From Gonapodya sp. JEL0774 (Eukaryota), in contig JADIIX010000094.1 in NCBI GenBank assembly GCA_027604505.1, positions 62,001 to 88,702 of the forward strand: a stretch of 26,702 nt of DNA. The letters run 5' to 3'. The notes below the pieces were generated by a model, which was not told the origin of the DNA, ran no database searches, and saw nothing but the letters and a program-made list of their open reading frames with translations. A program made the translations under genes and the position numbers. Shown piece after piece: positions 1-26,659 of this stretch (position 1 is its first letter; the number at the start of each line of letters is the position of its first letter).

Positions 1-265
1 TGGGAAGGAGTGATTCATATTCTGAGGACGAAGCGAGCGGAGAGGGCAAGGTAGACGGAGTTGTTTTGGTGACAGGAAAGCAAGAACGAGAGCACGAGAG
101 AGAGTCTTCGGCGCGGACGGAAAGCGGTTGGGGTGGGTTCTGTTGGGTTGGGGGTTCTTGCAATCGGGGGTTTCTACTTGTCCAACCCACCAAGTTGCAC
201 GCACTCGCAATGATACTCACCGCGCTCTCGTCTAATATCCGCATCTACTGACCCAATCTTTGTAG

Positions 266-4034
<3,769 letters not shown>

Positions 4035-4204
4035 ATAAAATTGAATTCACAGTGATAAACCACATTTATGGAGAAAGGACGGGATCTGTCTGAGGTACGA
4101 GCAGGGTCCCAGCCTGAGTGTCCATCACCTGCCTCAACTGTGTGCGGGCTGGGTCTTTCCTTTCCAAAGACACTTGTCAAAAAACTCTGCCCGGAAACCT
4201 AGAA

Positions 4205-6076
4205 ATGGGGAATAAGTCTTCGAAGCGGGGTGGCGGGCTTGACGACTCTTCTTCAGGCCCCACTTCTCCGCATCCATCCACAGAGAACCCCGCTCGGACA
4301 CAATCTCCACAGTCACCTCCTCTTTCCCCTGCGCCTGCCCGACCCATTCAAAATGGTAGTACGCCTGCTGCTGCAGATGGGCTGAATCCCTCCGCGCTTT
4401 CGCAGCCACCGGGCATGGTGGGGGCTGCATCAACCCCGCCAGTGAATGGTGTCGCCACTCACACTCCATCAGAGGTTGCAGCCGTTGCTCCGACCGCGAT
4501 TCCCGAATCTTCCACGCTCACTTCTGCGTCTGGAAGCCAGCCTCCTGCATCACCTACCTCCCCCATGCGAACGTCACCAATCTTAATCTCCGCCCTCACC
4601 AATGCCTCATTACCACTTCCAGTCGCTCAGCAGCTCTCTATCCCCAATTCTACATTTTCTGCTGACACTGCATCTCCACTGAGCTCTTACATCAACCCCA
4701 CCCGCGCTGCCGAAATTTCCATTGACGATATTATCCAACGATTGTTGGGACAACGGAACGGAAAACCAGGAAAAGCTCTCCCTGTTAAGAATCAGGAGAT
4801 CATGTTTGTGTGCCAGAGAGCGCGAGAAGTGTTCTTGGACCAACCTATTTTGCTGGAATTGAATCCGCACCCGTCATTGACAATTTGTGGAGACATCCAT
4901 GGACAATATGAGGATCTGCTCCGCATTTTTGACCTCATGGGATACCCACCGGCTACCAATTACCTTTTTTTGGGCGACTACGTCGACCGAGGGAAACAGA
5001 GCTTGGAGACAATTTTGCTGCTATTCTGCTACAAGGTCAAGGTATGTTCTGACACGGCTTTAGACCCGTTGGATGTCCTTCTGAAGTTTGACTTCCTCCT
5101 ACCGAAGTATCCCGAGAACTTTTTTATCTTACGTGGGAATCACGAGAGTGCTTCTGTCAATCGAGGTTGGTTTCTATTATCTGCATCGGCATTCTGTTAT
5201 CTGCGCATTCAGGCTATTCAAATCTCTTTAGTTTACGGTTTCTATGACGAATGCAAACGGCGGTGCAACGTAAAGGTGTGGAAGGCGTTCACTGACGTAT
5301 TCAACTGCCTGCCTGTAGCTGCAGTGGTTGCCGGAAAAATATTCTGCGTGCACGGTGGTCTGTCTCCGAATTTGAATACGTGAGTTTGTCGCAGCGGCCA
5401 CCGAGTTCACTTGAACCTCGATACAGTTTTCTGCCGGAATGCACATAGAATGGACGACATTCGGAGCCTGGGCCGACCGACGGATGTACCGGACGTGGGA
5501 CTTTTGAATGGTGGGAAGTTATTCTGGGTTAAGAGTATATATAGTCTAATTGTATTTTTGCAGACTTGCTTTGGTCGGACCCGAGTGAGACAGCGGTGGA
5601 ATGGTGAGAGTCGAAAGGGAAGCATATTCCCCCTTCGATTGTTAGCCAACGGTTATTTCTTTCGTTCTGCATTTGCATTAGGGAGGATAGTGAACGTGGA
5701 GTCTCGTATTGTTTTGGGAAGCAGGTCGTCCAGGATTTCTTGCAAAAAAACGACTTCGACCTGGTGTGCCGGGCGCACATGATTGTAGAGGATGGTTATG
5801 AGTTTTTCGGGAACCGGGTGCTCGTAACAGTGTTCAGCGCACCCAATTACTGCGGGGAATTTGACAACAATGGAGCGGTTATGCAAGTGAACGGTGCGCA
5901 TTGTCCGTTTCTTTTCGGTCGTTGTTGGACTGCTTTTCATTGTGTTTCCCGCTCACCTGATTTTCCCGTCAGAGGAGCTGCTGTGTTCCTTTGAGATATT
6001 GACACCGATGACAGTGACTAAGAAACATAACATGCGGAAGAGACGGGTATCGCCCCCTCAGATATTATCTGAATAA
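4205..6076 (+). CDS. PPZ1: PP1-like Ser/Thr protein phosphatase, PPZ type (myristoylation-type N-terminus, S/P-rich linker)
   Basis: ATG at 4205 gives MGNKSSK. PPP motifs present: [57 protein letters not shown]. Introns 5042-5107, 5166-5231, 5380-5448, 5511-5563, 5604-5681, 5894-5972; stop TAA 6074-6076. The PPZ (rather than GLC7) call rests on the MGN..SK extension and RAHM. Confidence 0.88.
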
Positions 6077-6217
6077 TTACTTTGTTGAATATGAATCTCT
6101 TGGCATGAGAGACTGGTGACGTTTTGTGACCAGAAAGCTTTTTGTCGGGGCACGGCAACCCTGGTGGCATGAGCCCCTTCTTCTTCAACCACAAATCACC
6201 GGTAGAACCCGAACATT

Positions 6218-8099
6218 ATGACGCGGCCATCTGTAGCTGAGAAGATTCAGGCCTTGGCGAAGGAAAACGGGGTGCCCTTGGAGTCCCCCACTTTGGCAAC
6301 GATGCTGGACCGCTCTGATCCCATCGCCACTCTTCGAAATGAATTTGAAATCCCTCTCATCAAAGATGTAGCTGATCCACAATCTGAAGGTTCGTCGTGG
6401 CGTGATCGTCATCAGATGTGCACTATTTCTCAAACTCATTAACCACAGATGGTAATAACGAGAGCATCTATTTGTGCGGGAACTCTCTTGGTCTGCTGCC
6501 AAAGGGAACGAAAACTCTTCTGTCGCAGGAGCTTGATGCATGGAGCCGAAAGTAGGCATTCTGTGGACTGTGTTGGGCGCTCGGGTAACACCTTTGAAAC
6601 TACGTTAGAGGTGTCCATGGACACTTTGACCACCCTTACAAACGACCTTGGGTAACTGTCGACGAAGAAGTGGTGGCAAAGAGCTGCCCCATTGTCGGAG
6701 CAGCGACTCTGAGCGAGGTAGCCATAATGGGGACCCTAACCATGAACATTCACCTGATGATGGTACGATTCCAAGCGAAACAACAAATTGTGTCTTGCTC
6801 ATATCGACCGTTATCCACTCCAAGGTGGCGTTTTATAAACCCACGACCACTCGCTTCAAGATTTTGTTGGAAGAGAAAGCCTTCCCCTCCGATCATGTAA
6901 GAGAGAGCAAATGCCTATTGACTCACGCATTTGAGCGAAACCTCTTTGTTGAAACTCTCGTCAGTTCGCCGTGGAGTCTCAGATCAAGTTTCATGGTTTC
7001 AATCCCACCGATGCACTGGTGCTTGTCAAACCACGGCCCGGTGCACACATTATATCTACAGAGGATATCCTTAGCGTCATTGAGGAGCATGGAGAGTCCA
7101 TAGCATTGGTTCTGTGGCCTGGAATTCAATACTATACTGGGCAGCTGTTTGACATGGCAACCATCGCCAAAGCTGCACACGCGAAGGTAATGCAAATTGG
7201 AGTCGGCTTATATAGCGAGTATTAACTTGAATTTGCGTACAGGGTTCCTTTGTTGGATTTGACCTTGCACATGCTGTCGGAAATGTGATTCTGAAGTTGC
7301 ATGAATGGGAAGCTGACTTTGCTTGTTGGGTCAGTGCTCCTGTCATTGAAAGAAGGATTTTGGAAATAACTGATTTACCTTCGTTTCCCTTTGAAAAGTG
7401 CACATACAAGTACCTGAACTCAGGCCCGGGAGGTATCGGTTGGTTCACTTGAGCGACGAATACTCGTCTTATCTGTCAATTGGTGGCCCTTGATTTATTC
7501 TGTAACTTCTCAGGTGGATTGTTCGTGCATGAAAAGTATGCAACCGATACTGAGCGATCACGGTGCGTAGAACGATTCGGGGTTAACGAACAGCATTAAT
7601 CCATGGTGCTTTCCATTTTGGTAGGTTTGCTGGCTGGTGGGGCCATGATAAATCATCTAGATTTGAGATGGACACTAAGTTTCTCCCTCTACCTGGTGCT
7701 GCTGGCTACCAACAGTCCAATCCTAACGTCTTAGCAACAACTGCACTTCTGGGGTCACTGAACGTGTTTGAGAAAACTTCAATGGAGCAACTTCGAGAGA
7801 AGTCGGAACTGCTCACTGGCTATCTGACCACATTATTACTCGATGGTTTGGGAGGCGCAGACTTTGTCATTATTACACCTGAGGATCCAACGCAACGTGG
7901 GTCTCAGCTCTCTCTACTATTTAGGACAAATGTGGGCCCAATTTTTGAGCGATTGTTAAAGAAGGGCGTAGTTTGTGATAAAAGGGAGCCAAATGTGATT
8001 AGGGTTGCGCCAGCGCCTTTGTACAACAACTTCATGGATGTTTGGAGATTTGTCAGTGCTTTGAAAGAAGTTTTGAAGGACCATTACGTGCTCCTCTAA
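6218..8099 (+). CDS. BNA5: Kynureninase (PLP-dependent, de novo NAD synthesis), spliced
   Basis: Spliced motifs [78 protein letters not shown] (PLP lysine), [26 protein letters not shown]; stop at 8099. Confidence 0.96.
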
Positions 8100-8235
8100 T
8101 ACATGTATCTTTTGGACAGCGTATGAAAAATTGTTCATCGGAGGGACGATCAGAGTCGAAACTATTACAATTATGTGGTTATCTCGTTTCGTGCATGGAT
8201 ACTTCCTCATGTGTAGGTATGGCATATTCCATTCA

Positions 8236-10363
8236 TCAGTCACTGAAGGGATCCACACCATGATTCCCCAGTGCAAGTTCCCAAGGCAAGATGTTTGATT
8301 CCGTTGGTGACCCTGATTCTGACGGTGGACGAGATCGAAATGGATCGATCTCAGGTGAACTGCGTGCGAGGAAAGGATCATCCAACGTGCCATCGGAGTG
8401 GAAGGAATGTGCATGGTTAACACCGGGCTTGGGTACATCAAGGGAATCCGCTGCAGTGAACTCTAGATCGCTGCGGTGAAGAGCTCCGGGTGTTTCACTG
8501 GTGGGGCTTTCCAATGCCGTTCTCGGGAGAAAAGGCCTATCCAGATTACGGGTGCATACACCAATGTTCAGGATATCGGTGCATTCCAACGCAATTCTTT
8601 CCGCTACCCTCCTACTCGTTTCGTCAACATCACCTTCCCCTGCCATACGAACAGCCTCAACGAGAATTCGCACTTCCTGAACTTTGTACCCCATCTCTCG
8701 TAAGTCAGTTTGCCCAAATAGAGCCCCTAGAACACGCAAATATGCCGCTCGAAGTGAACCCTGACTCATTTCGAGGTTGGGAGCTTCACGGAGAATAACG
8801 TCAAGGACGACACGAAGATCATTAGGGTAGAGAAAGTGAACGAGAGTAGGATGGGTGAAGAGAACGTAGAAAACTTTGAGAATTTTGAGTTGCAATTGGG
8901 GGTCCTCTGCAATCAGGGTGCTTGAAAGCTCTGGAGTGAATCGTAGCGCTGCTTGGCAGTCGTCCACATACCGCCACGATTGAAGATAAAGACCAGATTC
9001 TCTGAGAGAGTCTTGGATCTTCCTGCTCTTTGCTCCAGTGTGGCGAGCACCAGATTCGTCGTTCGCGCAACCAGAAATTGCTCGTTAAGTGAAACCTGAT
9101 CGGATTCTTCATTAGCACTTGAAACCGCCGATACCGAAGCAAGAATGGCCCACCATCAGTCCCACGATTGCATAACAATCGGATTCATCGTTCCTCTTCT
9201 CTTCCACGAGATCACACAGGTAGTTGAGAAACCCCTCATCAAAAAGAGCTTGGTGGACTCAGTAATCGAACCTAGACCGCGAACATATAGCAGTGAGCCT
9301 GGCTCACTCACTGAGCTCTGCGAGTGAAAGGCGTCCTACAAAGCGGACGCATTCGTACAGTAGGCGAATTGCCGGCGACTGCCCAAGTACCCCTTCGTAC
9401 AGCAGAAGGAGTGGGCAATGTTCACGGCGTCTACTCAATAAAGTTACAACCACGAAACCGTGAAACATACCACTTAGCAGCTTCACATCCTCCCGTAGTT
9501 TCTGGAGTCCGCCATTGTCCCGAAATACCCCGAATACGTTCTTGGGAAACTGAATTGCAGGCTCTTCCCCGCCAATGGGAATCATTGAGGGACTCTCTGT
9601 CCCAGATTTGACTGCCTGAAGGCTTCCCAGTGCTAAAATTAGAGTATAGAGGATGCACATGTGGCTTTCGAACGAGGGTGGAGATTGTTGGGGGGTGATC
9701 TGAGAATCGGAGTCAGAAAGAACGGCATGGAGTTCTGCAGGTCGCTCCGCATTGATTCGTGATACTGAGAGAGCCTTTTGCACGAGCCACGAGGTTAGCA
9801 GGGCCTCCAGTCCCACCGCTGGTTCACATGTTTCCTCCCCAACCCCGACCACAGCATCCCATCTAGCCTCAGAACACTCCAATTGCATCACCAAAAAGCA
9901 TATTCCATCAATTGCGTCTGTTGTTGCGGGATGGACCTGGTGGTCCAATGTCTTTGCAATAGCGTTTACGACCCTGCCCATGGCTAAGTCTATGGATATG
10001 GGGTTGTCAGCCGTCGCGAGGATTTGCATTAGGTCTAATAAGATGTTAAAGTGACAATTTGACGAAGAAATGAGGCTGAAAGGCGCGAAAATCACTGGAC
10101 GCGGCAAGCAACCTTTCCTCAGCATGTTAAATCCATCTGCACCACCATCTCCATCTCCATCTCTACTGTTTGTGTCCCGTTCGTCCCACTTCGTGTAGTA
10201 ATGGAGCTCTCGGTCTCGATCGCACATGAAATTAGCGATTCGTTCAAACATGAGGAATGGGTTCTGCTGTGGTCCAAGCACAAGCAAGACTGCGTGAGTT
10301 AGTCAGCTCCTGTTTCATTTAAAACAAACCTGCGCGTGCCCCGGTTGGTCTCCAGCTTCGCAT
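8236..10363 (-). CDS. LDB17: Ldb17/Dip1/SPIN90 (WISH/DIP) family Arp2/3 activator, DUF2013-type domain
   Basis: Minus-strand spliced peptides AIRLLYECVRFVGRLSLAEL, LFDEGFLNYLCDLVE, VSLNEQFL, KTLSENLVFIFNRG, DPQLQLKILKVFYVLFT, FLYPNDLRVVLDVILRE match the family pattern as I recall it. The start at 10363 assumes exon 10363-10330 and intron 10329-10290 (GTTTGT...GCTGACTAAC...CAG); an alternative ATG lies at 10251. Confidence 0.85.
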
Positions 10364-10445
10364 CCATATCGACGTTGCTCAGTTTTTAGCACAGTTTCGG
10401 GCTGAGACCACGGCTGCAGCCGTTCATGCACTTAGTCAGACAGAG
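10364..10445. promoter_or_regulatory. Putative very compact bidirectional promoter region between LDB17 and CSF1
   Basis: Divergent predicted ATGs at 10363 (-) and 10446 (+). Inferred from the gene models only; no core promoter motif identified. Confidence 0.5.
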
Positions 10446-13400
10446 ATGGCGAGCGAACAGATTCTCAATACTACCGTTGGTGAGCCCCCTTGTTATTCCC
10501 GGTTCTTCCTTGTGCTCTACTGAACACGGCGTGTATCTTGCTGGATCGGCCACGGGCCAACACCCGACCCCAACTTCAATCACCCGATTCGCAGACCCTG
10601 AGGTCGCTCTATGGACCTTCTTCGTGTACTGCCTGGTCGTCGTCTTAGTCGCCGTGTTCATTCTGTTTTACATGAACAGAATCATCGCTCAGGTTGTGTC
10701 CCGAATCATTCGACTTTATACCTGGAAGCGTTACAATGCAATGGTTGAGATTGGTGAGTGATATTTGGTCCATAAGAAACATTAGACTCAGCACTCGGCA
10801 TTCGGGGTGCTGTTTTCAAACCAAAGTGGAATACAGAAACCGTTGATGATAACTTCGAATGAGATCCCACTTGTGGAAGGGTTTGCTGGTTTTGCAGCTG
10901 ATCATGGGAGGTTGTTGTTGTCGTTCGGACATTGACAAACAATCGACTATTCGGATGGGGGGTGTACTCTTGGAGTTGTACGGAATATCGCCTGACGACT
11001 GCTACCTTACACGTACCGAGAGCATGCCCTCAGTCTCATAATGCGTATCCTAGAATCTTTCTCTATTAGCCCCCTCTCCGGAAAATTCTTTTTCCGCAAT
11101 CTGCGCTACCAGTCGCGTAATGAATCTTTCCATGTGTTCAGGGGTTACATCGTTTTTCGACATTGGTTAGGCAAAGTCGCCGCAAATGAGACCGATTTAG
11201 GTATGTAGTTGGTACTTCAAGGGGAATCAAGTTGTGCTGGGATCTAGATCGACAATCGTCACCATCATTCCATCGCCATCCGACTCACTTCAATGACTTA
11301 TCCGTTGCACCCTGGTCGGTCCCCCTCCCATCAGGCCTCCCGTGCCGATTCGGCCTTTACCTCGAAGGTTTTGAATGGTTTATATATAACAGGTCACCTG
11401 CGTACGACTACTTGCAGGAATTTCTAAGGAAGACCGGCGAGACTGCTCAGGGTTTACAGGGAAACAAGTGCGGAGCTGATGAGGCAGTGTCAGGTAAGCG
11501 AAACCAATTTTTTCCCATCTCGGACAGAAACAATGGAATTTTTCAAATTTTGTGACGGGGCGTTATCTCACTCACACCTCTTCCACATTGCCAAAGTTGA
11601 TGACCCTCAAACTACAAGCCTTCTCGACAAATCTTCAAAAGATCGATTCTTTCGCTCGCTTCTACCCCTGGACATTGAAGCATTGACGGGGGCCGTGGTG
11701 CTAGGTAATCCAGATTTGGCAACAATTTTGGTGTTTCAGTTTGAGGAGGCAAAGGGGATGTACAGAGCAATCAGTGTGGGTACTTCATTATGAAAGGAGT
11801 TCTTGTGGATTCATTAATGTGGATTGCTACACTCTATTGTCACATTTATGTCACCAACTGTTCACTCACACAGTCTGTGTCCCAATACGACTACTACAAG
11901 AGTGTGTTGAACTTGACATTCACCAAGCCCAATATGCAATTGCGGGCAAATGTAGACTATAGGGAGCCGTTGCTCACACAAGCAGCAAGATGGAGAATGC
12001 AGGAGTGAGTAGGTGTGAATGACTAAAGAATCAACATGTCTCACTTTATGTATTTCTGTTTAGACGTCATACTCGTGTAATGTCACGTGTCACCTCTTTT
12101 CTTGAAAACATCTCCATTTTTGAAACATCTGGCACAATGGGGGGAGGCCCAAACCCTGCTTCAGTCAGAGGCAAGCACGGGGGCGCAACATGGGCTGGTC
12201 TCTCCCGTTACAAGAAGCTTGAGACAGAAGCAGAGAGACTTAAGAGGTTTCTGGAACAGTATGCCAGAGTATCAACAGTGGTAGAAGCACCACAGTTAAA
12301 GTTGACTTATTATGTTGATATTGCTGGTAAGTCAGGTTATCTGAAGGTTCTTGTTAGAGATAAAAAGGCAAGAAGCAAGTCTTATATTGCTATCCTCCAG
12401 GCCCTGTCCCACCTTGTCCAAACCCAAGTTTGTCACCGGAGAATACACACTTTGGCAATGGTGACCTAAGTCCAGAATGGGGTGTGGAATTGACATTCAA
12501 AGATGTCATTGTTCATTATGGCCCTTGGGCTGACCGACAGCGTATTGCTTTACAAAGGTTCTTCTTTCCTCCATCATTTCGGGACCTTGAATGTACACCC
12601 AATTTGCTGCCAGGGGAGACTCGCATCCACTTGGCATTGAACTGGTTGATTAAGTTTGAGGGAAGCACCACCATGAGAGTGCCAATGCGAGAAGGAAGTA
12701 AGGATTGGAGGTATTACAAGTACCTTTCAGGTTCAGATGTACCTGCTGTATCAGCATCTCGGCCGTATGGTTGGCTTGACTTCAAGTTTAAGAATGACTC
12801 ATTCATTTTGTGGTCAATTCCAATGGCAAATAGTCTGGAAGGCTACGTCAGCAAGATGGAATGTCACTTGTCCAACATGAATATGACAAGTAGCTTGAAT
12901 TATGCCTCACTTGTGTCTGCTAAAACAGTTGAAGTGAGTAGTCTTGTTTTGTGTTGCTTTAAATCATACCAAAGAGTTTCCATAATGCCCCAAGATTCAA
13001 TTAAGTATGCCAGGGCCTTTAAAGTGGAATGGCATGAGGACATGGACTTGCAATATAAGACTTGAAGAACCAGTGCTGTTTCTGCTGAGAGACCACATTA
13101 CTCTGCTTCAAGATCTTATTATTGATTGGAATTCAGATTATTCTGTGGAAGCATCAAACTTCTGCCCCACAGATTACAGAATCAATTTGAACTTACAGGA
13201 CTTTCGCCTTTACTTGTGTGTTAATGATTGCAATGTTATTGATCAACCAAATGATTTGAATGAAAATTGTGAGTGTGTATGAGTAATCTTTCTTCTCTTG
13301 AAGCAAGTAAACCTTGTTACCTGGGTATGGAAAGCTTATGTGGTCCTTGGTGGCCCTGACCTTGAAGCCTCAGTACTGATAGTGTCATCAAAATTTGATC

Positions 13401-16400
13401 CACCTCAAGTCACAATTCCTTTTAAATTGACTGTAAGATTCTTCACACAGTAGTTGTGATCCATGCCTCATGTAGTCTCCATGGTTATCACAGATTGAAA
13501 AGGGATGGGGTCAATTTTTGTTTCCAGGAACAAGCACAATTGGGTCAAACTTTGTTGATCCGATGGACACAAAGGTGATCACAGCTCAAAGAATTGATTT
13601 ATATGGCAGATACAGCTACTGGAATGAGTTTAAAGCTGACCGCACAGATGAGCTAATTATGAATGTTGGGGTGAGTTAGCATGTGAGAGCAGGAGACCTG
13701 CTTTAATATTCCTCACTCATATTTTAGGGTGATGGAATCCACCTAAAGCTATACGGCTTTGTTGTCACATATATTCTCATTCTGAAAGAGAATTATTTGG
13801 GTTCCTCATTGTCTTTTTTGACAGTTGATGAATATAGGAAACGTATGGCAGATCCAGTTCATGCTGAGGAACAAAAGAAATATCAGGGGTTTGCCAAGGG
13901 CAATTCAAATTTTTTTGATGTCCGCATTGATCTTGGTATCCATGATTTCACAGTTCTATTGCCAGAAAACCTTTATTCTTGCTCACAATACTCAACTATC
14001 CACACACAGGAGATCAAGGTAGATTTACGTACAAATGATTCATATATGGGTCAGTTATTTTCTTTACACTCTTTTTTTACACCACTACGCAAATTTAAAT
14101 TTGCTCTCTGTACTCAGATGTCACCACCAATTCTAGCCCTTTATGTTGGACTTACAGCAAAGAGTCTGAGTCTCCAATGACACAGATTGTTGGACAACCA
14201 GGTGGCACTACTATACTTGTGGAGGATTTTTACTTGCATGCACACAGGTTGTTTGGACCTCAACCTGAAAATGCTGTATATGCAGTGGATTATCAAATTT
14301 GCGGGAGCTCCATCCAAGGAGAGATCCAACCTGCTTTTGTGCTTCATATTCTAGCATTTTCAAGGGCCTTTGCTGTTCACCTTGCAGACTTAGAAAACAT
14401 TATAGTGCCTAGACCTACATTGAATGACTTCACCTCTGCCCATATATTTGTGAGCACTGCACATCTCTTGCTGTGGGGTGCAAATAGCTGCACATTACTT
14501 GAGCTGAAGAATGGCTTGGAGCTCCAATACAACAATTTGGTATCTTGTATGCAAACATCAAGGGTAGAACTCCTGGTACCATCAGTTCTTGCCTACCTTC
14601 TTGTGTCAGATTCTGATAAAGGGTTATCAGTGAGTTACTTGTCACCACCCCTGCCAATTGATATGGAGTGCAAAATAACTTATAAAATTTTCCTGAAGGT
14701 CTCAGAGGAACTTTGGAAGGAAGTTGCTTATTGCAAATCTGGCATGGAAATCTCCATGTTTGAGGGAACATCAGATTGGAAATTGAAACAAGAACAGCAA
14801 TGTCACTACTTAGTACAAAATGATAAAATGAGTCAGAGATGCACCTATCTCTATTTGAGGGACTCTTACAACATTGAAGGTATTTACATTTTAATACACT
14901 CACATTATTTGTTCTGATCACTAATAATTGAGTAGTTTTAAAATCAACTTTGAAGCTATATGAGGCAGAAAACACAAATACTCACTTCTTGCCTAAGTTT
15001 TCTGCTCCAGCTGGTCAGTCCTTACCTCTCATTAGCAAAACAAAATATCTGACCAGTTTATGATTAGTCCCCAATCCATTCTTTAAAGGGTCATTTGTGG
15101 AATATGGGAGGAGTATATCTGAACTTAATCTTGGAGGAATAGGATTTCGACAGAAATATACTTCTGAGGACATAGTACAATTGTGAGTGTCAAGCGAGGT
15201 TTGGGAAAGGTAGGATGTCCCACAACAAATGCTCTTTGCAGACCTGATTTGACACAACATGTTCCTGATAGTGAGTCATATCTCATCAATTGAATTGCAT
15301 TTACTAACCAGGGCTGTGGTTTTAGCTTATCAACATGGTATCAAACACCAAGGTGTGAATGATAAACTGCCCTATGAAGCATACCTCCAACAGTTTGTGT
15401 ACCATTCCACTAACAATTTGGACAATAGTCCAATATTTGTTGTCAACAGCTTCCCAGGGTTTCTTCCTGTTAATGTGAGTACACAGATCAAACATCTCAA
15501 ATTAGATTAAATATTTTACATCTGTCCCATTCCCAGCACAGTTTAGTGGACATGCGGAATGAAATTTTCAGTAAAACCAACAATAGCAACAAGCATGACT
15601 GCCATGAACATAAATTGTTTCATATCATTCACTCTGATAGTGGAATATGGTGTCAATCCTCATTTTCTGTCTACCCCACAATCTTGATGCTGACACCAGC
15701 ATGTTTTCAAATACTGGAAGACCTCATCAAAAATTTAGGATCTCAGGTGTGCATCCTTCTGTTTGGAAAGTCTGTCATGTTGCACTGAACAATGTCACTG
15801 TCACCTGAAAAGCATCCACAGAACTTTGAGACTGAAATTGATAAAATCCACTTTGAAACTCTCCAGTTGCAAGAATCTGTTAGAGCAAAGGTGCAACAAT
15901 CAATAAACACATCAGGCATCTGCATTGACCTCAGTGCTGCAAATGTTATAGTTCTTCAGGACGTGACATTCCCTGAGGACCACACTCTGGTAGATGATCC
16001 AATTAATCAGATTCACAAAGCTACAAATTATTCAAGTGCAAGGTTATCATTACTGGATGTGTCAATCAAATCCATGACTGCGACTTTGGCAGTCACAGTT
16101 GAAGACAATCCCCTGACCTTAACCAAGAAGATTGTTAGTAGCACTGCTGATGGTGCTGTGAATTCCATCAAAGCCAGTGTTCGCTACTTTAATGAGGCTG
16201 AGGAAGCAAATATTTCAGGGCTACCAGAAGATTCAAATAATAACATGTTGGGACTTATGGGGTTTGGACGTTTAGACAGTGTTCCTGTTGTTCTGGATCT
16301 CCTCTCTATTCCTTTGCAGTGGGTATTGCAATTTCAGGATTCAAGCAACACAAAACCTGCATTGCAATCTATGTTTTATGTTGGAAATATAAGATTGGCT

Positions 16401-19400
16401 TTGATAAATCAGACAATGGAGATTCTGTTTGGATCTGCTCAAAGCTGGAAAACATTTTTGGAGCGCTTAGAGCTCATAATGACTAGGTTTCATGCTCAGA
16501 AAGCTTTATGGGTTCAAAGTGTTCTGACTGCCATTGCTGAAAACTCCACCACAACAGGTGACCCAGCATTCTTGACTCAGCCCTCTGCGCTGTGGAGACT
16601 TGGGGACAGAACATTCCAAAGAGATATCAACTGGAAGCTTTTACATCACATTCGATTTTGCTATGGGGCCATTCCTGCCAATTTGAGAAGCAGTATTATA
16701 GAGAAGCCAGATATAGTAGTGTCCTCTGAATTGGGATCCAGTCAGCTACTAGCAAGACTTGCAACAAGCTGGGCTGCGTGGAGAAATTGGGAGATTACTA
16801 CACTTCCTGATGTTCCACTCTTACAGAAAGTTTATGGCAGGACTGAACTTAGGGATGATATAAGCTTATTTGGGAAACTTATTGATGAGACAGCTATAAA
16901 CTCAGTTGCCAGATTTAGTATTCAAGAGTTTAACTTCTCAATTGTGGACTTACACAGTGAAGAGCAGTCCAATAATGTGGTAATTGGACCTATGACCTTT
17001 GAGGCAAGAGCTGTACGGCGTGACACCATCCTTCCAGAGGGGCTAAAACAGGATTTTCAGTCAGATAACTTGTCACTAACTTCAGAGGTCCCACAGTTTG
17101 GGACAAAGGCAAGGGAAAGCTTAGATTTAACAACCCTGGATGGCATGCAGTCATCATTCCTTGGGCCTGAATGCTACAACCTTCTCTGCAATGCCAAAGT
17201 GATGTCAATAGTAATGAGTTTGAACCCTAATGTGCTGGCCTTTGGGAAGCATGTCCTGAGAGTCTATAGATGGTTCAATTTGCGCACAACTCAGCAGAAA
17301 AAGAGGTCAACCAGTAGTTCCACAGCACCTGCAAGGCAGAGGGTAAAAAGTGCCCTTGCCTCCTTACTGCATGGAAATTGTCAGATTATTCTTGAAGGAG
17401 CTGGAATTGTGGATTCTTTGGTTTTATATGCTTCATCCCAGTCATTACATGCCAAAATTGCATTTGAAGACATTACAACAACTACACTTCACTTTCACTT
17501 CACAGGAGAAAAACCTCCTTTTTTGGGGAAAGGGACACAAAGAAGAGATGACAAATCAACCAATATGGAGAGACTTTTTCACAACACTTTTGGTCACTTT
17601 GCAATGCTACAAATTGCTGTTCTGGAAAAATCATATCGCACAACAGACTCAGATGAGCTTGTGGCAGCAGAGCTTACAGGTGGATCACTGGTTGCTACCA
17701 TAAGCCAGATTCTACCCCCACCAGGAAGACAGTCACAGTCTGTTGAGGGCATTCCAATTGAGCGTGTCAGTATCCTGAATGTTGTGGATACCTTAATGCT
17801 TCGTATGCCGAAAAGTGTCCTGAATTTATATTCTTTTTTGGAGCGATGGAGAGATGAAAACATTCCTAAATATGATTTTCTATTTCAAGAAATGATCCGT
17901 GAACTGGATGGAGGACCAATAGAGCCTTCTTCAGGACCATCAAATACTCTGTCCAAAATCAATGTAACTTCATGGGACACAAGAGACTACAGTGTACAGG
18001 GTCGATTGACAAATTTATTACTTGAATCTGATCTACTGCAAACACTGGAATGTACATACTCCTTGATGGACCTTGTCCTTTTTGTTGATACAATAAGGGA
18101 TCGTAACACCAAGAAAGGTGTTAAGTCAAAGAATGCTTCTGTATGGTCTGAACTAGATTTTTCTGTGTGTGTTTCCAAGCAAGAAGTCATACTCGTTACT
18201 CATCCAAAGGATTCATCAGAGCTCAGTGGAAACTATCTTGAAGCAGTAGGGGTGCATTCCTCTAATTTTCAGATTCCTGCCATTGTAGCGTTCTGTTTTA
18301 TTAAGTTCCCAGCTTTGGTGCTTGATAATAATAATGGGCAAAAGCAAGGTCTTCAGAGCACTAGGGTGGATGCCTATATTCTTCTTGACCCTATCAAAAC
18401 CATCTTGAATGTCAGGATGATTGATCAACTCCTGATGGCTCAGTCTATTATTGGTTCAGAAGTTAATGATCTATTGGATACTTTTGTATTCTCTTCTCAG
18501 AGGAAGATTGCCAGGCTTTCAGAGCAGCCAACTAAGAAAACAGAGAAAGACCCTGGAATGGCCTTTGCAGTCAAAATCATTCTAAATGGTGTTTCTGTTG
18601 GTGCAACAAGCCCCTCCAACACATTGCTTTTTGACTCTAATGTGCTAGAGGCATTTGCAACAAACCGTACAGACTCATGGTATGGAAAATCTCAAAGCGC
18701 AATTTTATGGCGAATAGCTGCTAGTGGGACATCTCTGAATTTCACCCAAAAATTTCGGATAAAAGGAGAGATCCCTTTGCCAAGCAGTGACTCTGAATCT
18801 TACTTGATTGCAAGTGTTGCCCTGGACTTTGTTTCTCAAAACTTTTCAAGGCCTGGAACAGCTGCCATCAAGCTTCAAGAGTGGAGCAGGGAAGAATTTT
18901 TATTTGCATTTGAAAAGCTGTTCAGTGTTATGCATCCCATAGCATTGGGAAAGCTTGTTGACTTTTGGGTTTTCTACTCTAATGAACTGAATAGGCGAAA
19001 GGAGCTCAGGAATGTACACATTCGCAAGCTGCAAGAAAACACCCAGCAACTATTAAAATCAATAAATGTTGATCTTCCCAAGTATCAAAACATAAAAACA
19101 ACTTCCTTATTTGCACAGAAGCGAATTGTGGTTGATATTGGACGAATTGGGGTAGCTATACCCCTGGATATTATTGATGAGGGTCACACTGGGGCACTAC
19201 CTGTTTCACACATTGAGAGAGATAAAAACCGTGCTTTTCTTCTTTCCATGAAGAGTGTGAGACTTGAAACAGACAGCTTAAATAGTAGTCAAGCAACAGT
19301 GAAAGACTTGTGTTTCCAGTTCGTTTTGAGGTTTGACCAGACAAATGAGAAACACTTCCAGCCAGGATCTCATCCAGCAATTAATCGAATGGTCCTTCCA

Positions 19401-22304
19401 GATATTGGAGGAGAAGTGAAATTGATTAAAGAGCAAGGGAAGAAGACTTTAATTTGGGCAGATGCCTCTGTTGCTGGGTTTGAGCTTGATATGGATTCTT
19501 CATTGGGAGCTTCTGTGCACACTTTGACTGAACTGTACAGGCAAGGCAGGGATAAAGTACTTGGGTTCCTTCCAACTCATGGGATAAGCTCAGAAGTTAG
19601 TCAAAAAGATGTTGGGTCTACAGTAGTAAAGGATCTGCTTGAGGATTCTCAGAGTATGTCTGACATACTATTACTGGAAACAGAGGCACGATTTGAGTTT
19701 AAAACTGGAAGTAAAGTCAGAATTCATATGAGGCGACCTTCACAGGGAAAGTTTGATTCAGGTCTCAGAACTCGAAATCTTGGAACTCAGCAGCTTGACA
19801 GCAAAACTGCCTCAGAAACAAGGCGCGGTGTTGATCTTGGAATCCACCAGCTAATAGTACCTGGTGTGAAGCTGCGACTAAGTTCCTCCACTCCATTTGG
19901 TCAAACCATGTCAACTGAGCCAACTATGGAATCCAGACGAATGCATGCAGAAATTTCTGTTGAGAAAAGTGAGAATGTGGTACACTCAGCACTTGTTGGG
20001 TTTGTGAAGGAGATATCAGCCAGTATGCAACCTACTCTCAGTGTGCTGTCCAGGCAAGGCTCCACATCAGAAGGGGGAGCTGCACATTCTTTCAGCAGAT
20101 CTCACGCAATTGCTTCCACTTCAACTCAGCAAATGGCAACACTAGAAAGATTGAATTCTTTCAGAAGGTTACATTCAGTAATTACAGTGATGTTCCAGCT
20201 TGAAGAAACAAAATTAGATTTGAGTTGCCAACCTCTTTCCAAAACAATTGGAAGCCTTATGGTCAACACTTCCAGTGTTCTTGTTTCTCTCACAAGAGAT
20301 GATGATAATAAAATCTCAGTGTCCTCTATTGGACGTGTTGGCAGTGTTTTTGTGAGATTGAGACATGCATACTCACCTGAGGACTGTTTCAGGGGTCAAA
20401 TTGCACCAATATCAGTCAATTCTGTGACTTTAAATAAGCCTTCTGTACCAGGTGGTAATACTTTGGTTCAGTTCTTCATACCAAACATCACTGGAGATTT
20501 CAACATCCGCCACCTTCATGACTTTTATGTGTTTCAGCTCACCTGGCTGGCAGGTCTTGACACATTAAGTGTGACGCCACCCTCTGCATCCACAGGTAAT
20601 CTTCCAAGGGCAGATTCGAATCATCCTATTACAAGTGTGAATCTGAGGAAAGTCATCCCAGCAACACATCAGCCACAATCATATCACCTTGTTGGGAGTC
20701 TTGGAAGTGCAACCATCACTGCTGATTTAGGGCAGGCAGTTGGGAAGACTGAGTTCCTTTGGAAACGTACCCTGTTTCAAATATCACAAATTGCTAGATT
20801 GGGTAGATGCGAGGGGAGGGAGCTATTTGTCACTATTGAATCCTTGAGTCTTGATTCCAATGGTCGTTTAAGTGGTGCTTCAATCATAAAAGATATCACT
20901 TTGCATGTGGGCACTGTTGAAGTTCTTAAGGATGATCCATCATTCCAACCAGAACCAGAAGCCCTGAGGTTAGATTTAGACATCACCTCATTGTCATCAA
21001 ACCTTGAATACCAGTATGAAAGGATCCTACTGGCTGAGTTTGGGCCATTATCACTTCACTTATCAGATAGGAACTTGGTTCCGACAGACGCACAAACATT
21101 ATCGGCATCAATCACAGTGTCACTTAAAAATGCACAGGGAGTTATGTCCAGGCGCTCCATGCCAGCATTACTAAATGTTCAAAAACGACTTCAACTCCTT
21201 GCAGAAGAGAAGGAGGCGTATGCTAAATCTCTCCTTGCTGATTCACATACAACATCTGGTTTAGCTGAATCTTATGGCTTTCAAACAACAGACCATGGTT
21301 TTTTGTCAGGCTCAGAGAACACACCTGTGTCATTTATGAAGAAAATATTCTCAAATGGAACACCATTTCATACATTGGGTGGCAAGGTTGATTTACACGT
21401 TATGAATGTGAGCTTTACCTTTTTTAAGCACACATTCCGGGATGGAGATGGAGTACAGCTTGGAATGAAAAATGTACAAATTGTTGTGGACTTAAAAATA
21501 CCAGTACTCATTTCTGGAAAATTTGACCAATCCACACACTTGGCAGTGGGAGTATTGTGTTTGCAACGCTCCTTTGGAAAAGCAATCAGTCCAACAGAAG
21601 AACGTGACTGGGTTCCACAGCAATGGTTTGAACATATTGATGGCTTCAGCAGAAAAAATGTGATAATGGTACCAAGCTCAACTGTGGACTTCAAAGGAGC
21701 AGTGCAAAGGGCAGATAAAAGCCGTGTGGAATATTCTCTCAAGGCTAATTTCTCTGCCCCTATTGATGTTGCCTTAAACTTTTCACTATATCGGTATCTA
21801 ATTACCTTGTGGCAAGTTTATATGAAGGCTTTGGAATCAAATGATGATGGAGGTCAAGATGGAACTGCAGATTTGAGAAATATGGACAATAAAGCCGAAG
21901 GTCAAAAAAAGGTTGTAAGGAGTGGGTCACCATCACAGGTTGTGATACCAAAGCTGTCAGATCAAGTTTTCAAATTTAAAGATGATTCCTCACCCTCAAA
22001 TGAGAGCAGTGGAATTGTGGATTCTGATGATTATCATGGTGTGCAAACTGATGTGCCACATTCAGATTCTTTGGAAATAGAATTTGTGGCAACTGGCCCT
22101 GTGGAGTTCTATCCTCACTTGCAGGTTACTGGTGAAGCAACTCCCAAAGAGTGGCTTGACTGGTTGAAGGGGACAAAGGAGGCAATTCCAAAGGTCATTT
22201 TCCATGGGGTTACAGAACACGCTGAAGCTTCCATCAAGTTTGCAGTGTGGGTCTGGAAGCAGCTGACTGTCTCATCAACTAACTCAAAAAACAGAATCAA
22301 GTAG
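10446..22304 (+). CDS. CSF1: Csf1/BLTP1 (KIAA1109/tweek-like) bridge-like lipid transfer protein, estimated over 3000 aa
   Basis: Exon 1 10446-10479 (MASEQILNTTV), intron 10480-10594, then an N-terminal TM helix (LWTFFVYCLVVVLVAVFILFYMNR). Family motifs LEGFEWFIYNRSPAYD, GAVVLGN, LTYYVDIAG, SPEWG, HYGPWADRQR..LQRFFFP, KENYLG. Many short introns, then a terminal exon of about 6.5 kb (15813-22304) ending in PHLQVTGEATP. Confidence 0.93.
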
Positions 22305-22744
22305 TGAGATCCAATGAAACTTAGCACTTGTGAATTGTAAGTGTGCTTAAGCATCCCCAGTCCTAAAATACAACTGTCTAGTCTTCACAACCTCTTCCTA
22401 TTTCACATCTCAGATGCATCCTATTAATTTGACTCCTGGACTCAAATAGATACATTGTACAACCAGATTTGTTTCACGTTTTTGATGATTAGAAAATGTT
22501 TTGTGGTTCACATGTCATCCATGTACCCTGTGGGAGTGAGAGGGGCACAGGCCCTGGCCCTTGACCTAAGCTCACTAAACATGGAGGTTACAAGTTACAA
22601 ATACTCCAGTAAGCATAATGTACCATAACCTCACACGGAGTTTAGTACACTTGCAAAATCTCTCCACACACTCCCATTAGATTTCCAACCTGCTGGGCCA
22701 AAAACCTGGACCAACCCCAGCCTATTCCCCAGGTCCAGCTAGGT

Positions 22745-22873
22745 ACACTGCTTTTTGTGACTTAGATCCCAGTCATGTCCGAGTCACAGAAATTGTTGTT
22801 ACTGGCAGGTCGGGTTCTTCATACTCATGACCCACTCTGACCCAGCTGACCCAAGTATGAAAATGAGCAGTGT
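22745..22873. repeat. Short imperfect inverted-repeat element (possible decayed MITE)
   Basis: ACACTGCT (22745-22752) and AGCAGTGT (22866-22873) are perfect reverse complements. There is an inner TTCATACT/AGTATGAA inverted pair and three TGACCCA direct repeats. No clear target-site duplication. Confidence 0.3.
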
Positions 22874-23445
22874 TTCCAAATGCATAGGCATGAGTACTTA
22901 GTATTGTGTTCAGTTTTTTCTTGTGTAATACAAAGAAGAGGTTCTTTTTGTGTTTCATCATGTGGTGTCCACATGCTAATCTTTAATTCACCCACAAATC
23001 CATCAAAAGCATCAAAAGCTCTTGGAAAAAACGGGACAAGACTTTGGAATGCAAAGATTGGTGATTCACAGACCCAAAACAGATGTGACAGACATGTTTG
23101 ACACTTTTTCTAGCTTGAAACAGGTCATGCAGCTATGATGCCCTGCTCATGGAGTCTAGAGAGCAACAAGTGAATAAAATTGTGGTGCTGATAGCCTGAG
23201 GACACTGGACAGCATTCTTTAGAATTAGGTGAGTGAAACAGTGTGGCAACACTGTTGGGGCACTTTTGTGAGCAACTATGCTTGCGTGATGAGGGTTGCT
23301 GCCTCCAAAACAACTACCAACTATCCAAAATTTGGGGGGTTGGTTGTTCCACAGATCTGTTAAGGAGTAGTCTCAGTGGACTGTTTGGAGCAGCAGACAC
23401 CTTTAAACAGATCAAACGCCCTCAGTGTCTGCAGATTTACCCCAC

Positions 23446-25739
23446 ATGGATCTTAACCCCAAAGATGTGAGTGACCTGTTGCTGTCAATTTGATTATGGC
23501 TTACATTCATTAGCCAAACTGGTAGTTGGATCTTACTGTTGAACTCGAGGAAGACAACAACCCTAAAGGGGCTTCAAAACCCTCAAAGGAAGAGACTGAA
23601 GCTACCCCGAAACAGAAGGTAGGTGAAGGGTATTAATTCCTTGGTACGTTTGCTAACATGTGTTATTTAGAAACAGCGTGAGAGTCGCAAGCTCATAAAT
23701 CCTATCACCCTCCCCACCACCCATCTTGTGGAACCCGATCAACTTGAGGCAGCGCTTACAGCATTTGCGACTGAACAAGGTGCGAATCATTCGGTTTTCA
23801 TAATCGATTTCCCTAACCCGGAAGATGCAGACAAATCGAGACCGGTGAGTGTTGCATGTAATTTCGCTTCGATATATTATTGACGCACTAATGTTCCTGA
23901 AGTCTTTGGCCCCGAGATTACAAGCGAAACTGCGTGGACTCCGACTCATTGCGCTTAACAAGGTTCTGAAGCAAGGTGGGGTACTCATTGAGGTAAGTGG
24001 TCTGTTCTTTTGTACTATCACACATTACTGATACATGTTCATCAGCGAATTGACATGTCCGAGTTTGCCGCTATGAAGTCTGACTATCTGACTGCTGGTG
24101 CGCCCACCTCTGCCACTGTGCACTTCGCTTTCCAGTCTGCCCCTGCCTCGAAAGGCAACCTTCCTGATGACAGCACCCTGTTCGACGCCACCAATGATGT
24201 TACCCACTACGCTGTCACATCTACATCACCAGCATCGCTCAACTGGTCACAGGGATTGTCTTGGCATCGATCATGGGCGAACTCGAATCTGTGTGGCCCA
24301 TGCACAGTTCCTGATCTCAATGTTGTGGTGAGTTATCTATCGTTGATTAGCCACCGATATCCTATTCTCACTTACTATCAATTATTTTTTGACAGAAATA
24401 CGTGATACTGTCCCAGTCCAAGAAGAGCGAGAAGAAACTCCCGTATTTCACACGGCAAACTCCAAGCGCACTTTGGATGGAGCTTATCACCCTAGTAAGT
24501 AATCCGGGTGATGGAGTTGTATTGCCTAGTGTCGGGACAGGAAGCGCTGCTACAGCGTGTGCCATTCTGGGGCGCACGTGCAACGCTTGGGTTTTCGACA
24601 TCGAATTTCGCGGGAACCTCGAGAAACATTTTCTTGCAATTGATAGTCTGTTACGGGAGGACGCGGGGAAGACATTGGAAAGGTGAGTGACAGTATTTGC
24701 ATTACATTTCTGGTGTTTGATTTCTCTAACCCCCAACTAGATTGATCCAAGACAAGGATTTTCTACGGTACACCTTGTCCACTAGGTGCACCCCGATTGC
24801 CTCGCCGCCGGTCAAGAGCAGTAACCTCTCGGCCAAGAAAATCGCAAATGTCCCCTCCTCGCCCACGGCTCCGAGTACACTTATTGATGTCCCGCCAGCT
24901 CGTAAGTAATGGTTTGATCATCATGTTTTGCACTTTAATGCTAACAAGCTACCTAATACTCTTTCTACAGAGCAATCCCAGCCTGGTTCTGGTCATGGAC
25001 GCCGTGTGCAACGTTAGTACCAAATTGCATGTTGGCTGCTGCAACTTTGTGCTCATACCTGGGTTTTGCTTCACAGAACGTAATCCCTACATTGATAATG
25101 AGGCAGAGGTTGAAGGAGGTGAAGATGGATCCGAAGGTATGCATCCAAACTCTTGTTACTTCTACTGTTTGGTCTGCTCAACTGCTGTGTTTTGCAGGTA
25201 GTCACACCGATGAAGAGACCCCATCCTACAAGGATATGATCAATGATGGGGATGAAGGTGAAGGTGAAGATGACCAGGGCGAGCCTGCAGATGTGGATGA
25301 AGGGGACAGTGAGGAGGAGAGCAAATACGATGGTAAGTTCGCATTTTACTTGAACCTGGCTGTTGTCGTTTAACATTGTCTATGTGGATGAAAATGCTCC
25401 AAAGCCTACCCAACCTCCTGTCCAACCACCCGCACCTGCAGCCAGGGGAGCTCACCGTGAACGTGCTCAGGAGTCAGACTCTGGTGAGTACACATTCTTG
25501 CCCTGTTGGTCGCTGCATGGTCGCTTCTTACTGTCTCTATTTGACTAGAACCTAAACCAAAGCGTCAACGCCTCGTACAAACACGGGGGGCAGACTGGGG
25601 TGGTTGCGGGATGAGGAGAGGTAGTGCAAGTGGGAACACGCGAGGTAGTCCTGGGGGAAAGGGGTTGGAGCGCCGGGTCTGTATAGACTTCAGACTTATA
25701 TCATGGCATAGTTCCTCACTGAAATTAATATACTTTTGA
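23446..25739 (+). CDS. Intron-containing divergent beta-class N4-C/N6-A DNA methyltransferase-like protein with acidic and RG-rich C-terminal tails (possibly inactive or decaying)
   Basis: Exons 23446-23466, 23526-23618, 23671-23844, 23903-23992, 24046-24327, 24396-24682, 24741-24901, 24971-25012, 25077-25136, 25198-25332, 25388-25483, 25549-25739 join in frame. Motif order is SVFIIDFPN (IV-like), KVLKQGGVLI (VI-like), then RQTPSALWMELITLVSNPGDGVVLPSVGTGSAATACAILGR..VFDIE (X/I/II-like). The start, the last exon and one acceptor (25387) are uncertain. Confidence 0.65.
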
Positions 25740-26402
25740 TACAAATATTTGTCTTCCATATTATTGATCTAGGGGTGGGGGGTGCAAAAAACGTGACACA
25801 AGGACCTTGGTTCTGCTGGGTTTCACGCTCATTTGCTCCTCCATGTCACACGCCAACAGCATTCTACCAAATCGACCAAGAACCTCAGGGAAGATTCTTT
25901 GCTCTACAGCGCCACCTGCTTGTTTCCTCAAAATCTCCCTTGTCTCTCAACTGGTCCACAGGTTCCAAGTGGCGCTGTTCATGGGCATCGACCAATGTCT
26001 TGGGTCCACATGTTGTGCCTGAATCAGACATATTAGAGAGGTTGCGCAGAATTTAGTTATCACGACTTTGGTGCACACAAGGTATGTGGCACGAGGGAAA
26101 ATATTGGGAGCCCGAATTGGGAGCACAAAACTCTGCTTGTTTGACTCGTAAAATCGACTGCGATTGGACTGATTTTTTCACACTACTGTAATACAATAAT
26201 GCTGAATATATTTCAAGAGTCAATTTGTGACAAATACAATTGAGTCACTCGCAACGCAACCCTGGTTTTTCGCCCAGCAGCGATTCTGATGACCCGGATT
26301 TGCACGGTGAGAGTGCATTTGTAAAAGATTTCTCGGTTGCAGTCACAAATTAATACCATAAATGTGGTGTTTCTTCATGTTGTTGGTCTCTGTGTGTTCC
26401 AG

Positions 26403-26659
26403 GTGCTGTCCCCGCGCCTGACAAGAAGACAACTGAGTCATTACCAACCCACAAGCCAGGAACTGCCCGAAAGAGGCCCGGACGTCCCCGCCAACCTGCA
26501 TCGTCTCAGAAAAAGGTGAAGCCGCCGCTGTCGGGCTTTGCTTTGTTCCGGAAGTCAAAGGAGAAGGAGGTCAGGCACAATCATCCGGAGTATGGATTCG
26601 GGATGGTTGGAGCTACAATCGGAGATATGTGGACTAAGATGACAGAAGAGGAGAAGGAG
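26403..26659 (+). CDS. Exon encoding an AT-hook followed by an HMG box (Nhp6/HMGB-like); the gene continues beyond the window
   Basis: CAG acceptor at 26402 and GTAAGT donor at 26660. Translation: ...TARKRPGRPRQPASSQKKVKPPLSGFALFRKSKEKEVRHNHPEYGFGMVGATIGDMWTKMTEEEKE. A phase-compatible upstream mini-exon ends at 26306 (GTGAGA donor). No ATG located. Confidence 0.85.

What the first reader, a model, noticed from the sequence alone, without database searches (positions are those of the whole stretch)
23446..24740. Spliced, bacterial-type beta-class amino-DNA methyltransferase gene in a fungal genome
Seen in sequence: five consecutive GT-AG introns stitch a reading frame that the ORF track fragments. 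It contains DQLEAALTAF..SVFIIDFPN, then IALNKVLKQGGVLIE, then RQTPSALWMELITLVSNPGDGVVLPSVGTGSAATACAILGRTCNAWVFDIE. Established: beta-class N6_N4_Mtase enzymes read GDCLE..SVDLI.TDPPY / RVLKPGG / HPTQKP.L..LI...SNPGD.VLDPF.GSGTT..A...LGR..G.E in exactly this order (IV to VIII, TRD, X, I, II). Eukaryotic members are rare and horizontally acquired, e.g. bdelloid rotifer N4CMT and the Marchantia 4mC enzyme. It does not resemble the MT-A70 family that writes 6mA in early-diverging fungi. Inference: a horizontally acquired (bacterial, phage or giant-virus) MTase that gained introns and may form an undescribed fungal DNA-modification system.
Basis: partly seen in the sequence, partly recalled or inferred. 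Interest (0 to 1): 0.88.

Follow-up and report, generated by a model that had tools for sequence, protein, structure and literature searches.

The report
Fungal multi-copy ParB pseudo-methyltransferase gene
This intron-rich gene is a front-truncated copy of a multi-copy family of the aquatic fungus Gonapodya that joins a phage-like ParB domain to a bacterial-type DNA methyltransferase domain whose standard active-site residues are replaced, so it is likely a non-catalytic DNA-binding protein carried by a mobile element rather than a new host methylation system.

Summary
The spliced gene is real. Nine GT-AG introns give a 448-residue frame identical to an annotated Gonapodya hypothetical protein. 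Its second half is beta-class amino-methyltransferase (PF01555 E=5.7e-5; hhalign E=1e-7); the first half matches only marginally (E=0.052). (1) The copy is truncated: full-length relatives carry about 340 more N-terminal residues with a ParB domain. (2) The family is multi-copy and decaying: 19 named members in two Gonapodya genomes, several subfamilies, CpG-type mutations; a second paralog fragment lies just downstream. (3) Residues invariant in bacterial enzymes (motif IV aromatic, motif X His, motif I Asp, probably motif II Glu) are replaced, yet the replacements (DFP, PSVGTG, WVFD) are conserved between subfamilies only 42-45% identical. Best reading: a phage-type ParB-methyltransferase fusion that gained introns and became a probably non-catalytic cargo protein of a mobile element; no transposase was seen. 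I found no description in ten literature searches. A working host 4mC/6mA system is unlikely.

The parts
23411..23466 (+). First surviving exon (linker region). Acceptor CAG at 23408-23410; the ATG at 23446 is internal. No homology to the family's ParB and helical domains upstream.
   Evidence: P0005 aligns from 23422
23526..23618 (+). Exon: charged linker
23671..23844 (+). Exon: motif III-like Asp and deviant motif IV (DFPN)
23903..23992 (+). Exon: helix and motif V-VI region (NKVLKQGG)
24046..24327 (+). Exon: motif VII-VIII region and the presumed target-recognition segment with conserved NWS..W.R.W
24396..24682 (+). Exon: motifs X, I, II (cofactor-binding half; PSVGTG, WVFD)
   Evidence: PF01555 E=5.7e-5, phrog_3008 E=2.7e-5, hhalign
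24741..25332 (+). Four exons (24741-24901, 24971-25012, 25077-25136, 25198-25332): Ser/Pro-rich then acidic tail
25333..25387 (+). Intron 10 with donor and branch-like site but ending TGG; if retained the frame stops 13 codons in, as in record P0028
   Evidence: homologue P0009 runs on at this junction
25388..25739 (+). Probable last two exons (25388-25483, 25549-25739): Pro-rich, then basic NLS-like and Arg/Gly-rich tail
   Evidence: sequence directly; inference, weak homologue support
25800..26035 (+). Frameshifted fragment of a second, distant subfamily of the same gene family (one exon only)
   Evidence: tblastn with P0017: 77% over 39 aa and 93% over 41 aa, in two frames
26403..26659 (+). 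Exon of an HMG-box gene with an AT-hook-like motif; has a 76% identical paralogue (P0010); possibly part of the same element
   Evidence: PF00505 E=7.1e-8

Best explanation
The stretch is a 5'-truncated, spliced copy of a Gonapodya multi-copy gene whose full form joins a ParB domain, a helical domain, a beta-class methyltransferase-derived domain and an acidic tail, and whose product is likely a non-catalytic DNA-binding protein carried by a mobile element. Shown: splicing pattern, domain order, copy number, truncation, replaced motifs, conservation of the replacements, CpG-type decay of copies. Inferred steps: (1) a phage-type ParB-methyltransferase fusion entered the Gonapodya lineage and gained introns; (2) it was spread by a transposon or endogenous virus, whose copies the host silences with CpG methylation; (3) the methyltransferase domain lost methyl transfer but kept its fold, glycine loop and DNA-facing segment, and would bind the element's DNA or a flipped base, while the ParB domain (DGxHR motif intact in full-length copies) would act as a nucleotide-gated DNA clamp and the acidic tail would contact histones; the likely job is to mark or shield the element's own DNA. 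(4) The copy in this window is probably a dead remnant.
For: Full-length architecture in P0003, P0006-P0009, P0013; ParB hit phrog_1033 E=1.6e-6; nearest Atlas clusters for the N-terminal 300 residues are phage proteins, scores 0.92-0.94, some with ParB_N (a lead only). 21 hits at E<=0.001 among 1.84 billion representatives; 13 of the 14 whose source I have are Gonapodya, 1 is an unnamed ParB-only match, 7 were not looked up. 13 G. prolifera members lie on 12 contigs; two subfamilies share one 38.5-kb contig, as two share this window. Six G. prolifera copies are 82-95% identical; Arg changes in 15 of 109 cells against 90 of 2306 for other residues (Fisher p=4.6e-5), 14 of 15 to Gln/Trp/Cys/His. 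In 25 bacterial beta-class rows motif IV Tyr, motif X His and motif I Asp are 25 of 25 and motif II Glu 24 of 25; the family has Asn/Ser/Thr, Phe, Leu/Ile/Val and Val there. In rotifer N4CMT the equivalent Tyr, His and acidic residue contact base and cofactor (PMC10406627 passages). DFP, WME, PSVGTG, WVFD are invariant across three subfamilies 42-45% identical.
Against: No transposase, integrase, capsid gene, terminal repeat or target-site duplication was identified in the window, and no genome was available to define an element. The invariant glycine loop and the Asp of WVFD could still bind SAM: HMMER puts that Asp in the motif II column with a two-residue insertion, whereas MAFFT puts Val there. 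Methyltransferase clades with odd motif IV (SLPD, DLPY) exist (PMC4738411 supplement). The CpG test is on predicted proteins, and cells from related copies are not independent. The roles given to ParB and the tail rest on family knowledge only.
Confidence: 0.55

Rival explanations
1. The family is an active amino-methyltransferase with a rebuilt active site (DFP[NST], PSVGTG, WVFD), carried by a mobile element to mark its own DNA with 6mA or 4mC and so escape or alter host silencing.
For: Motif IV Asp and third Pro, both motif I glycines, motif III Asp and an Asp near motif II are kept; these are the longest invariant runs across subfamilies; fungal transposons carry DNA-modifying enzymes such as TET/JBP (PMC12730594 passages).
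Against: Four positions that are invariant or nearly so in 25 bacterial rows are changed at once, among them the base-stacking aromatic; copies show CpG-type decay.
Confidence: 0.2
2. A host gene family, not mobile cargo: a pseudo-methyltransferase expanded by ordinary duplication with birth and death of copies, serving as a chromatin or defence protein.
For: Many introns, several old subfamilies in both species, no transposase nearby in this window; G. prolifera is prone to intron-rich xenologs (PMC11291939 passages).
Against: Recent bursts of 82-95% identical, dispersed, mostly broken or truncated copies in each species, some on contigs of 1-10 kb; the same paper says acquired genes were rarely duplicated in G. 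prolifera.
Confidence: 0.15
3. One reading: an intact, domesticated host 4mC/6mA writer like rotifer N4CMT, with this locus as the functional gene.
For: Open 448-codon frame with the whole methyltransferase-like domain; CpG o/e 0.70 in the gene against 0.12 just upstream.
Against: Front third of the family protein missing, internal ATG, non-AG acceptor at intron 10, no [DNSH]PP[YFW], no chromatin-reader domain found, multi-copy decay.
Confidence: 0.08

Closest known systems
Prokaryotic and phage beta-class amino-MTases (PF01555; M.MboIIA, CcrM, M1.HpyAVI, M.RsrI)
   Same: Motif order IV to VIII, then X, I, II; sequence hit on the cofactor half; an alignment-assisted model matches only these at Z>=8 (circular).
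   Different: Catalytic and cofactor residues replaced; about 30-35% identity at best over the cofactor half; introns; long acidic tail; multi-copy in a eukaryote.
Phage ParB-methylase fusions and ParB-terminase loci (PMC4738411 passages and supplement)
   Same: ParB/Srx domain N-terminal to an amino-MTase domain.
   Different: No phage relative was detected by tblastn of P0007 or in viral contigs; no terminase; the link rests on architecture, PHROG and Atlas hits.
Bdelloid N4CMT (PMC8885841, PMC10406627, passages)
   Same: Horizontally acquired, intron-bearing, permuted PF01555 domain in a eukaryote.
   Different: N4CMT is an allelic pair with intact SPPY, shown activity and a chromodomain; this family is multi-copy, ParB-fused and lacks the motif.
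Described early-diverging fungal N6-MTases: Iyer group I clade 4, chlorophyte/chytrid ParB-HTH Dam (BATDEDRAFT_85509), MetB (PF02384), MT-A70 Mta1
   Same: Prokaryote-derived adenine-methylase domains in basal fungi; one has a ParB-type HTH.
   Different: By the papers' descriptions these are unpermuted or other families with other fusions; Gonapodya does not occur in the Iyer supplement. I did not align their sequences.
Inactive MTase domain of DIRS1 retrotransposons; TET/JBP cargo of fungal DNA transposons
   Same: Works-like analogy: a dead or DNA-modifying domain carried by a mobile element.
   Different: Different MTase group (PCIF1-derived) or different enzyme; no ParB.

Membership tests
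Beta-class amino-DNA methyltransferase (PF01555) | Cofactor half (motifs X, I, II) homologous and C-terminal | tested here: met
   PF01555 positions 152-205, E=5.7e-5; hhalign 94%, E=1e-7
Beta-class amino-DNA methyltransferase (PF01555) | Catalytic half (motifs IV-VIII) homologous and N-terminal | tested here: inconclusive
   No Pfam hit; shallow profile 9 of 100 shuffles as good; deeper profile aligns 128 columns in register, E=0.052, 2 of 100 shuffles as good; MAFFT registers motifs IV and VI when given the domain alone but not with whole proteins
Beta-class amino-DNA methyltransferase (PF01555) | Score above Pfam's cut-off | tested here: not met
   23.6 bits (exon), 21.2 (P0028), 15.6 (P0013), no hit (P0017) against 26.7
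Beta-class amino-DNA methyltransferase (PF01555) | Catalytic motif [DNSH]PP[YFW] | tested here: not met
   DFPN, DFPS, DFPT in three subfamilies; one near-identical broken copy reads DFPY; Tyr in 25 of 25 bacterial rows
Beta-class amino-DNA methyltransferase (PF01555) | Motif X His and motif I Asp-x-[FCV]-x-Gly-x-Gly | tested here: not met
   His replaced by Phe, Asp by Leu/Ile/Val, third position by Ser; both glycines kept
Beta-class amino-DNA methyltransferase (PF01555) | Motif II acidic residue binding the SAM ribose | tested here: inconclusive
   Val in the ungapped register, Asp with a two-residue insertion
Beta-class amino-DNA methyltransferase (PF01555) | Permuted Rossmann fold | tested here: inconclusive
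   Family-only model failed (pLDDT 33.6); model built with 25 bacterial rows (pLDDT 58.5) matches beta-class enzymes, Z 8.5-10.1, rmsd 3.8-5.5, 150-185 residues, but that test is circular
Beta-class amino-DNA methyltransferase (PF01555) | Methyl transfer to adenine N6 or cytosine N4 | not testable with these tools
   needs an assay
ParB/sulfiredoxin superfamily | DGxHR motif domain in the full-length family | tested here: met
   phrog_1033 E=1.6e-6; motif read in P0003, P0006-P0009, P0022, P0025, P0026
ParB/sulfiredoxin superfamily | Domain present in the window's copy | tested here: not met
   tblastn and profile search find nothing upstream of 23410
Transposon or endogenous-virus cargo | Dispersed, similar, decaying copies | tested here: met
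Transposon or endogenous-virus cargo | Linked transposase/integrase, terminal repeats, target-site duplication | tested here: inconclusive
   None identified; one 20-nt inverted pair (22690-22709 / 26261-26280, blastn E=0.34); the window ends 1 kb downstream and no genome was held
Iyer group I clade 4 fungal N6-MTase; chytrid ParB-HTH Dam; MetB; MT-A70 | Unpermuted order or own Pfam family and fusions | tested here: not met
   Cofactor half is C-terminal; no PF02384, PF05063, chromo, PHD or ZZ hit; direct sequence comparison not done

The most novel reading that the evidence does not exclude
Gonapodya harbours an undescribed mobile element whose ParB-fused, phage-derived methyltransferase is still active through a rebuilt active site and writes 4mC or 6mA on its own copies: a third kind of borrowed bacterial DNA mark in eukaryotes, this time in the service of a selfish element.
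Probability: 0.2. Interest if true: 0.85.

Novelty: new variant of a known kind. Interest (0 to 1): 0.5.

Why it matters
Permuted beta-class DNA methyltransferases are rare in eukaryotes, and the studied cases are single host genes with intact active sites. This family adds an independent acquisition that kept a phage-type ParB fusion, gained about ten introns, split into subfamilies and swapped its catalytic residues for a new conserved set. If it is mobile cargo it points to an unrecognised element in Monoblepharidomycetes; whether dead or active, it is a directly testable case of how borrowed DNA-modification enzymes are turned into readers or counter-silencing factors.

Tried and rejected
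No whole genome was held. No sequencing run was listed, so splicing and expression were not tested with reads; this is no evidence either way. AlphaFold with family rows only failed. No close locus in viral, metagenome or prokaryotic contigs, phages with P0007 or plasmids with P0006; these searches need near-exact words or clear similarity. The profile A4 found weak matches (best E=3.5e-5 per genome) in 6 of 301 and 3 of 301 sampled bacterial genomes, 7 of the 10 on the cofactor half and none on ParB, too weak for a donor tree; no tree with prokaryotic sequences was built. Profiles A4 and A8 found nothing significant in the PDB. Profile A3 dropped motif I and was not used. Alignment A5 misaligned the N-half and was dropped. 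One search compared two alignments that share family rows and is discarded as circular. The ParB-motif pattern returned nothing because of a pattern error; motifs were read by eye. Rejected: Trm11-like or other RNA/protein methyltransferase (no such hit); bacterial contamination (spliceosomal introns, same contig as CSF1, kynureninase, a Ser/Thr phosphatase). Earlier findings of this scan: nothing relevant. Supplements other than that of PMC4738411 were not read; xenolog lists in the supplement of PMC11291939 could bear on novelty.

Full report
Observation. The window is fungal DNA with ordinary host genes (a Ras/Roc GTPase, a Ser/Thr phosphatase, kynureninase, SPIN90/Ldb17, CSF1/BLTP1). Donor sites are far above chance (9 against a shuffle mean of 1.1, maximum 6 in 1000), the first six junctions are colinear with 4 to 6 of 9 homologues, and record P0028, a hypothetical protein of Gonapodya sp. 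JEL0774, is identical to all 448 residues. No sequencing run was listed, so the junctions have no read support here.

What the domain is. The exon 24396-24682 hits PF01555 (E=5.7e-5, below the curated cut-off), phage DNA methyltransferases and CcrM (E=0.0029). Profile comparison with bacterial beta-class enzymes gives 94%, E=1e-7 for this half. The first half is weaker: no Pfam hit, 9 of 100 shuffles as good with a shallow profile, then 128 columns in the expected register with E=0.052 and 2 of 100 shuffles as good once distant paralogues were added. The Atlas gave unnamed clusters first (0.90-0.92) and PF01555 clusters at 0.87-0.88, a lead only. AlphaFold failed on family rows alone; with 25 bacterial rows it gave a middling model (pLDDT 58.5) whose 11 matches at Z>=8 are all amino-methyltransferases, which shows compatibility but is circular. 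Beta-class ancestry is therefore well supported for the cofactor half and probable for the whole domain.

The copy is not the whole gene. Homologues begin about 340 residues earlier with a ParB/sulfiredoxin domain (DGxHR motif; phrog_1033 E=1.6e-6) and a helical region. In the window homology begins at about 23411-23422 and nothing upstream matches; the ATG at 23446 lies inside a linker exon that has its own acceptor. Intron 10 ends in TGG where homologue P0009 places the junction, and read-through stops after 13 codons. A frameshifted piece of a second subfamily (77% and 93% identical to P0017) lies at 25800-26035, followed by an HMG-box gene that has its own 76% paralogue. CpG density changes at about 23500-23740, from o/e 0.12 in the gap to 0.70 in the gene, which fits DNA that arrived at this place later than its upstream flank (inference).

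The family. An exhaustive profile search of 1.84 billion representatives gave 21 hits; 13 of the 14 with a known source are Gonapodya, one is an unnamed weak ParB-only match, and 7 were not looked up. With the earlier searches there are 19 named members: 13 in G. prolifera on 12 contigs and 6 in G. sp. JEL0774. They form several subfamilies 39-50% identical, with recent bursts of 82-95% identical copies. Most gene models are partial or skip segments. Among six G. prolifera copies Arg is the most changed common residue (15 of 109 cells against 90 of 2306; p=4.6e-5) and 14 of 15 changes go to Gln, Trp, Cys or His, the pattern expected from decay of methylated CpG (established knowledge; cells are not independent). 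This is how silenced mobile DNA looks, but no transposase, viral gene or convincing terminal repeat was found in the window.

Active site. In 25 bacterial rows the motif IV Tyr, motif X His and motif I Asp are invariant and the motif II Glu is in 24; the family has Asn/Ser/Thr, Phe, Leu/Ile/Val and (in the ungapped register) Val. In the rotifer enzyme the equivalent residues stack the base and hold the cofactor (PMC10406627, passages), and replacing SPPY by APPA abolishes activity (PMC8885841, passages). Yet the changes are not random decay: DFP, NWS, WME, PSVGTG, ACA, LGR and WVFD are the invariant runs among three subfamilies in which 79 of 265 columns are invariant. The pocket has been kept in an altered form. 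The alternative register puts the Asp of WVFD in motif II, so SAM binding is not excluded.

Mechanism. I favour (0.55) a phage-type ParB-methylase fusion that entered the lineage, gained introns and travels with a mobile element as a non-catalytic DNA-binding protein: ParB as a nucleotide-gated clamp, the methyltransferase fold as a sequence or flipped-base reader, the acidic tail as a chromatin contact. These roles are inferred from family knowledge. The phage link rests on architecture (PMC4738411), PHROG and Atlas hits, not on a tree; no phage or prokaryotic relative of the whole protein was found.

Literature. Ten full-text searches returned no description of this family. Seen: PMC4738411 abstract, passages, section 5 part 1 of 2 and three supplement searches (Gonapodya 0 occurrences); passages only of PMC8885841, PMC11258239, PMC12730594, PMC12695648, PMC11291939, PMC13297926, PMC12344493, PMC10406627, PMC10538959; listing and start of abstract only for the Marchantia preprint, whose enzyme class I did not check. 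The library lacks most subscription papers and Repbase, so absence from print is not proven. The known fungal enzymes (clade 4, ParB-HTH Dam, MetB, Mta1) differ in motif order or family by their descriptions.

Verdict. Real feature, right ancestry, but a truncated member of a multi-copy ParB-fused family with a non-standard active site. New variant of a known kind; interest 0.5, rising to about 0.85 if a member proves active.

Noticed in passing
window 11700-23500: CpG observed/expected falls from 0.85 in the host genes of 1-11000 to 0.1-0.3 along most of the conserved CSF1/BLTP1 gene, with TpG and CpA excess and a sharp left edge at about 11695. This looks like long-standing CpG methylation of a host gene body, which reviews call largely lost in fungi (PMC13297926 passages), or spreading from the neighbouring repeats.
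   Followed up: partly
window 26403-26659: HMG-box exon with AT-hook-like motif; its paralogue P0010 continues into a region that by recall resembles Myb/SANT proteins of PIF/Harbinger transposons (no Pfam hit for that part).
   Followed up: partly
window 22690-22709 and 26261-26280: 20-nt inverted pair (18 of 20) bracketing the gene and the paralogue fragment; does not extend; blastn E=0.34.
   Followed up: partly
window 22305-23410: 1.1-kb CpG-poor gap without Pfam hits in the three frames tested; holds a 20-nt palindrome at 23237-23256 and a lone splice donor at 23229; possibly an older repeat remnant.
   Followed up: partly
window 25077-25136: The acidic tail starts with a short aromatic-Ile-Asp-x-Glu-Ala motif kept in distant subfamilies; by recall such motifs occur in chromatin and replication proteins.
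   Followed up: no
P0004 and P0020: Members of two subfamilies have accession numbers three apart on one 38.5-kb G. prolifera contig, echoing the paired subfamilies in this window.
   Followed up: no
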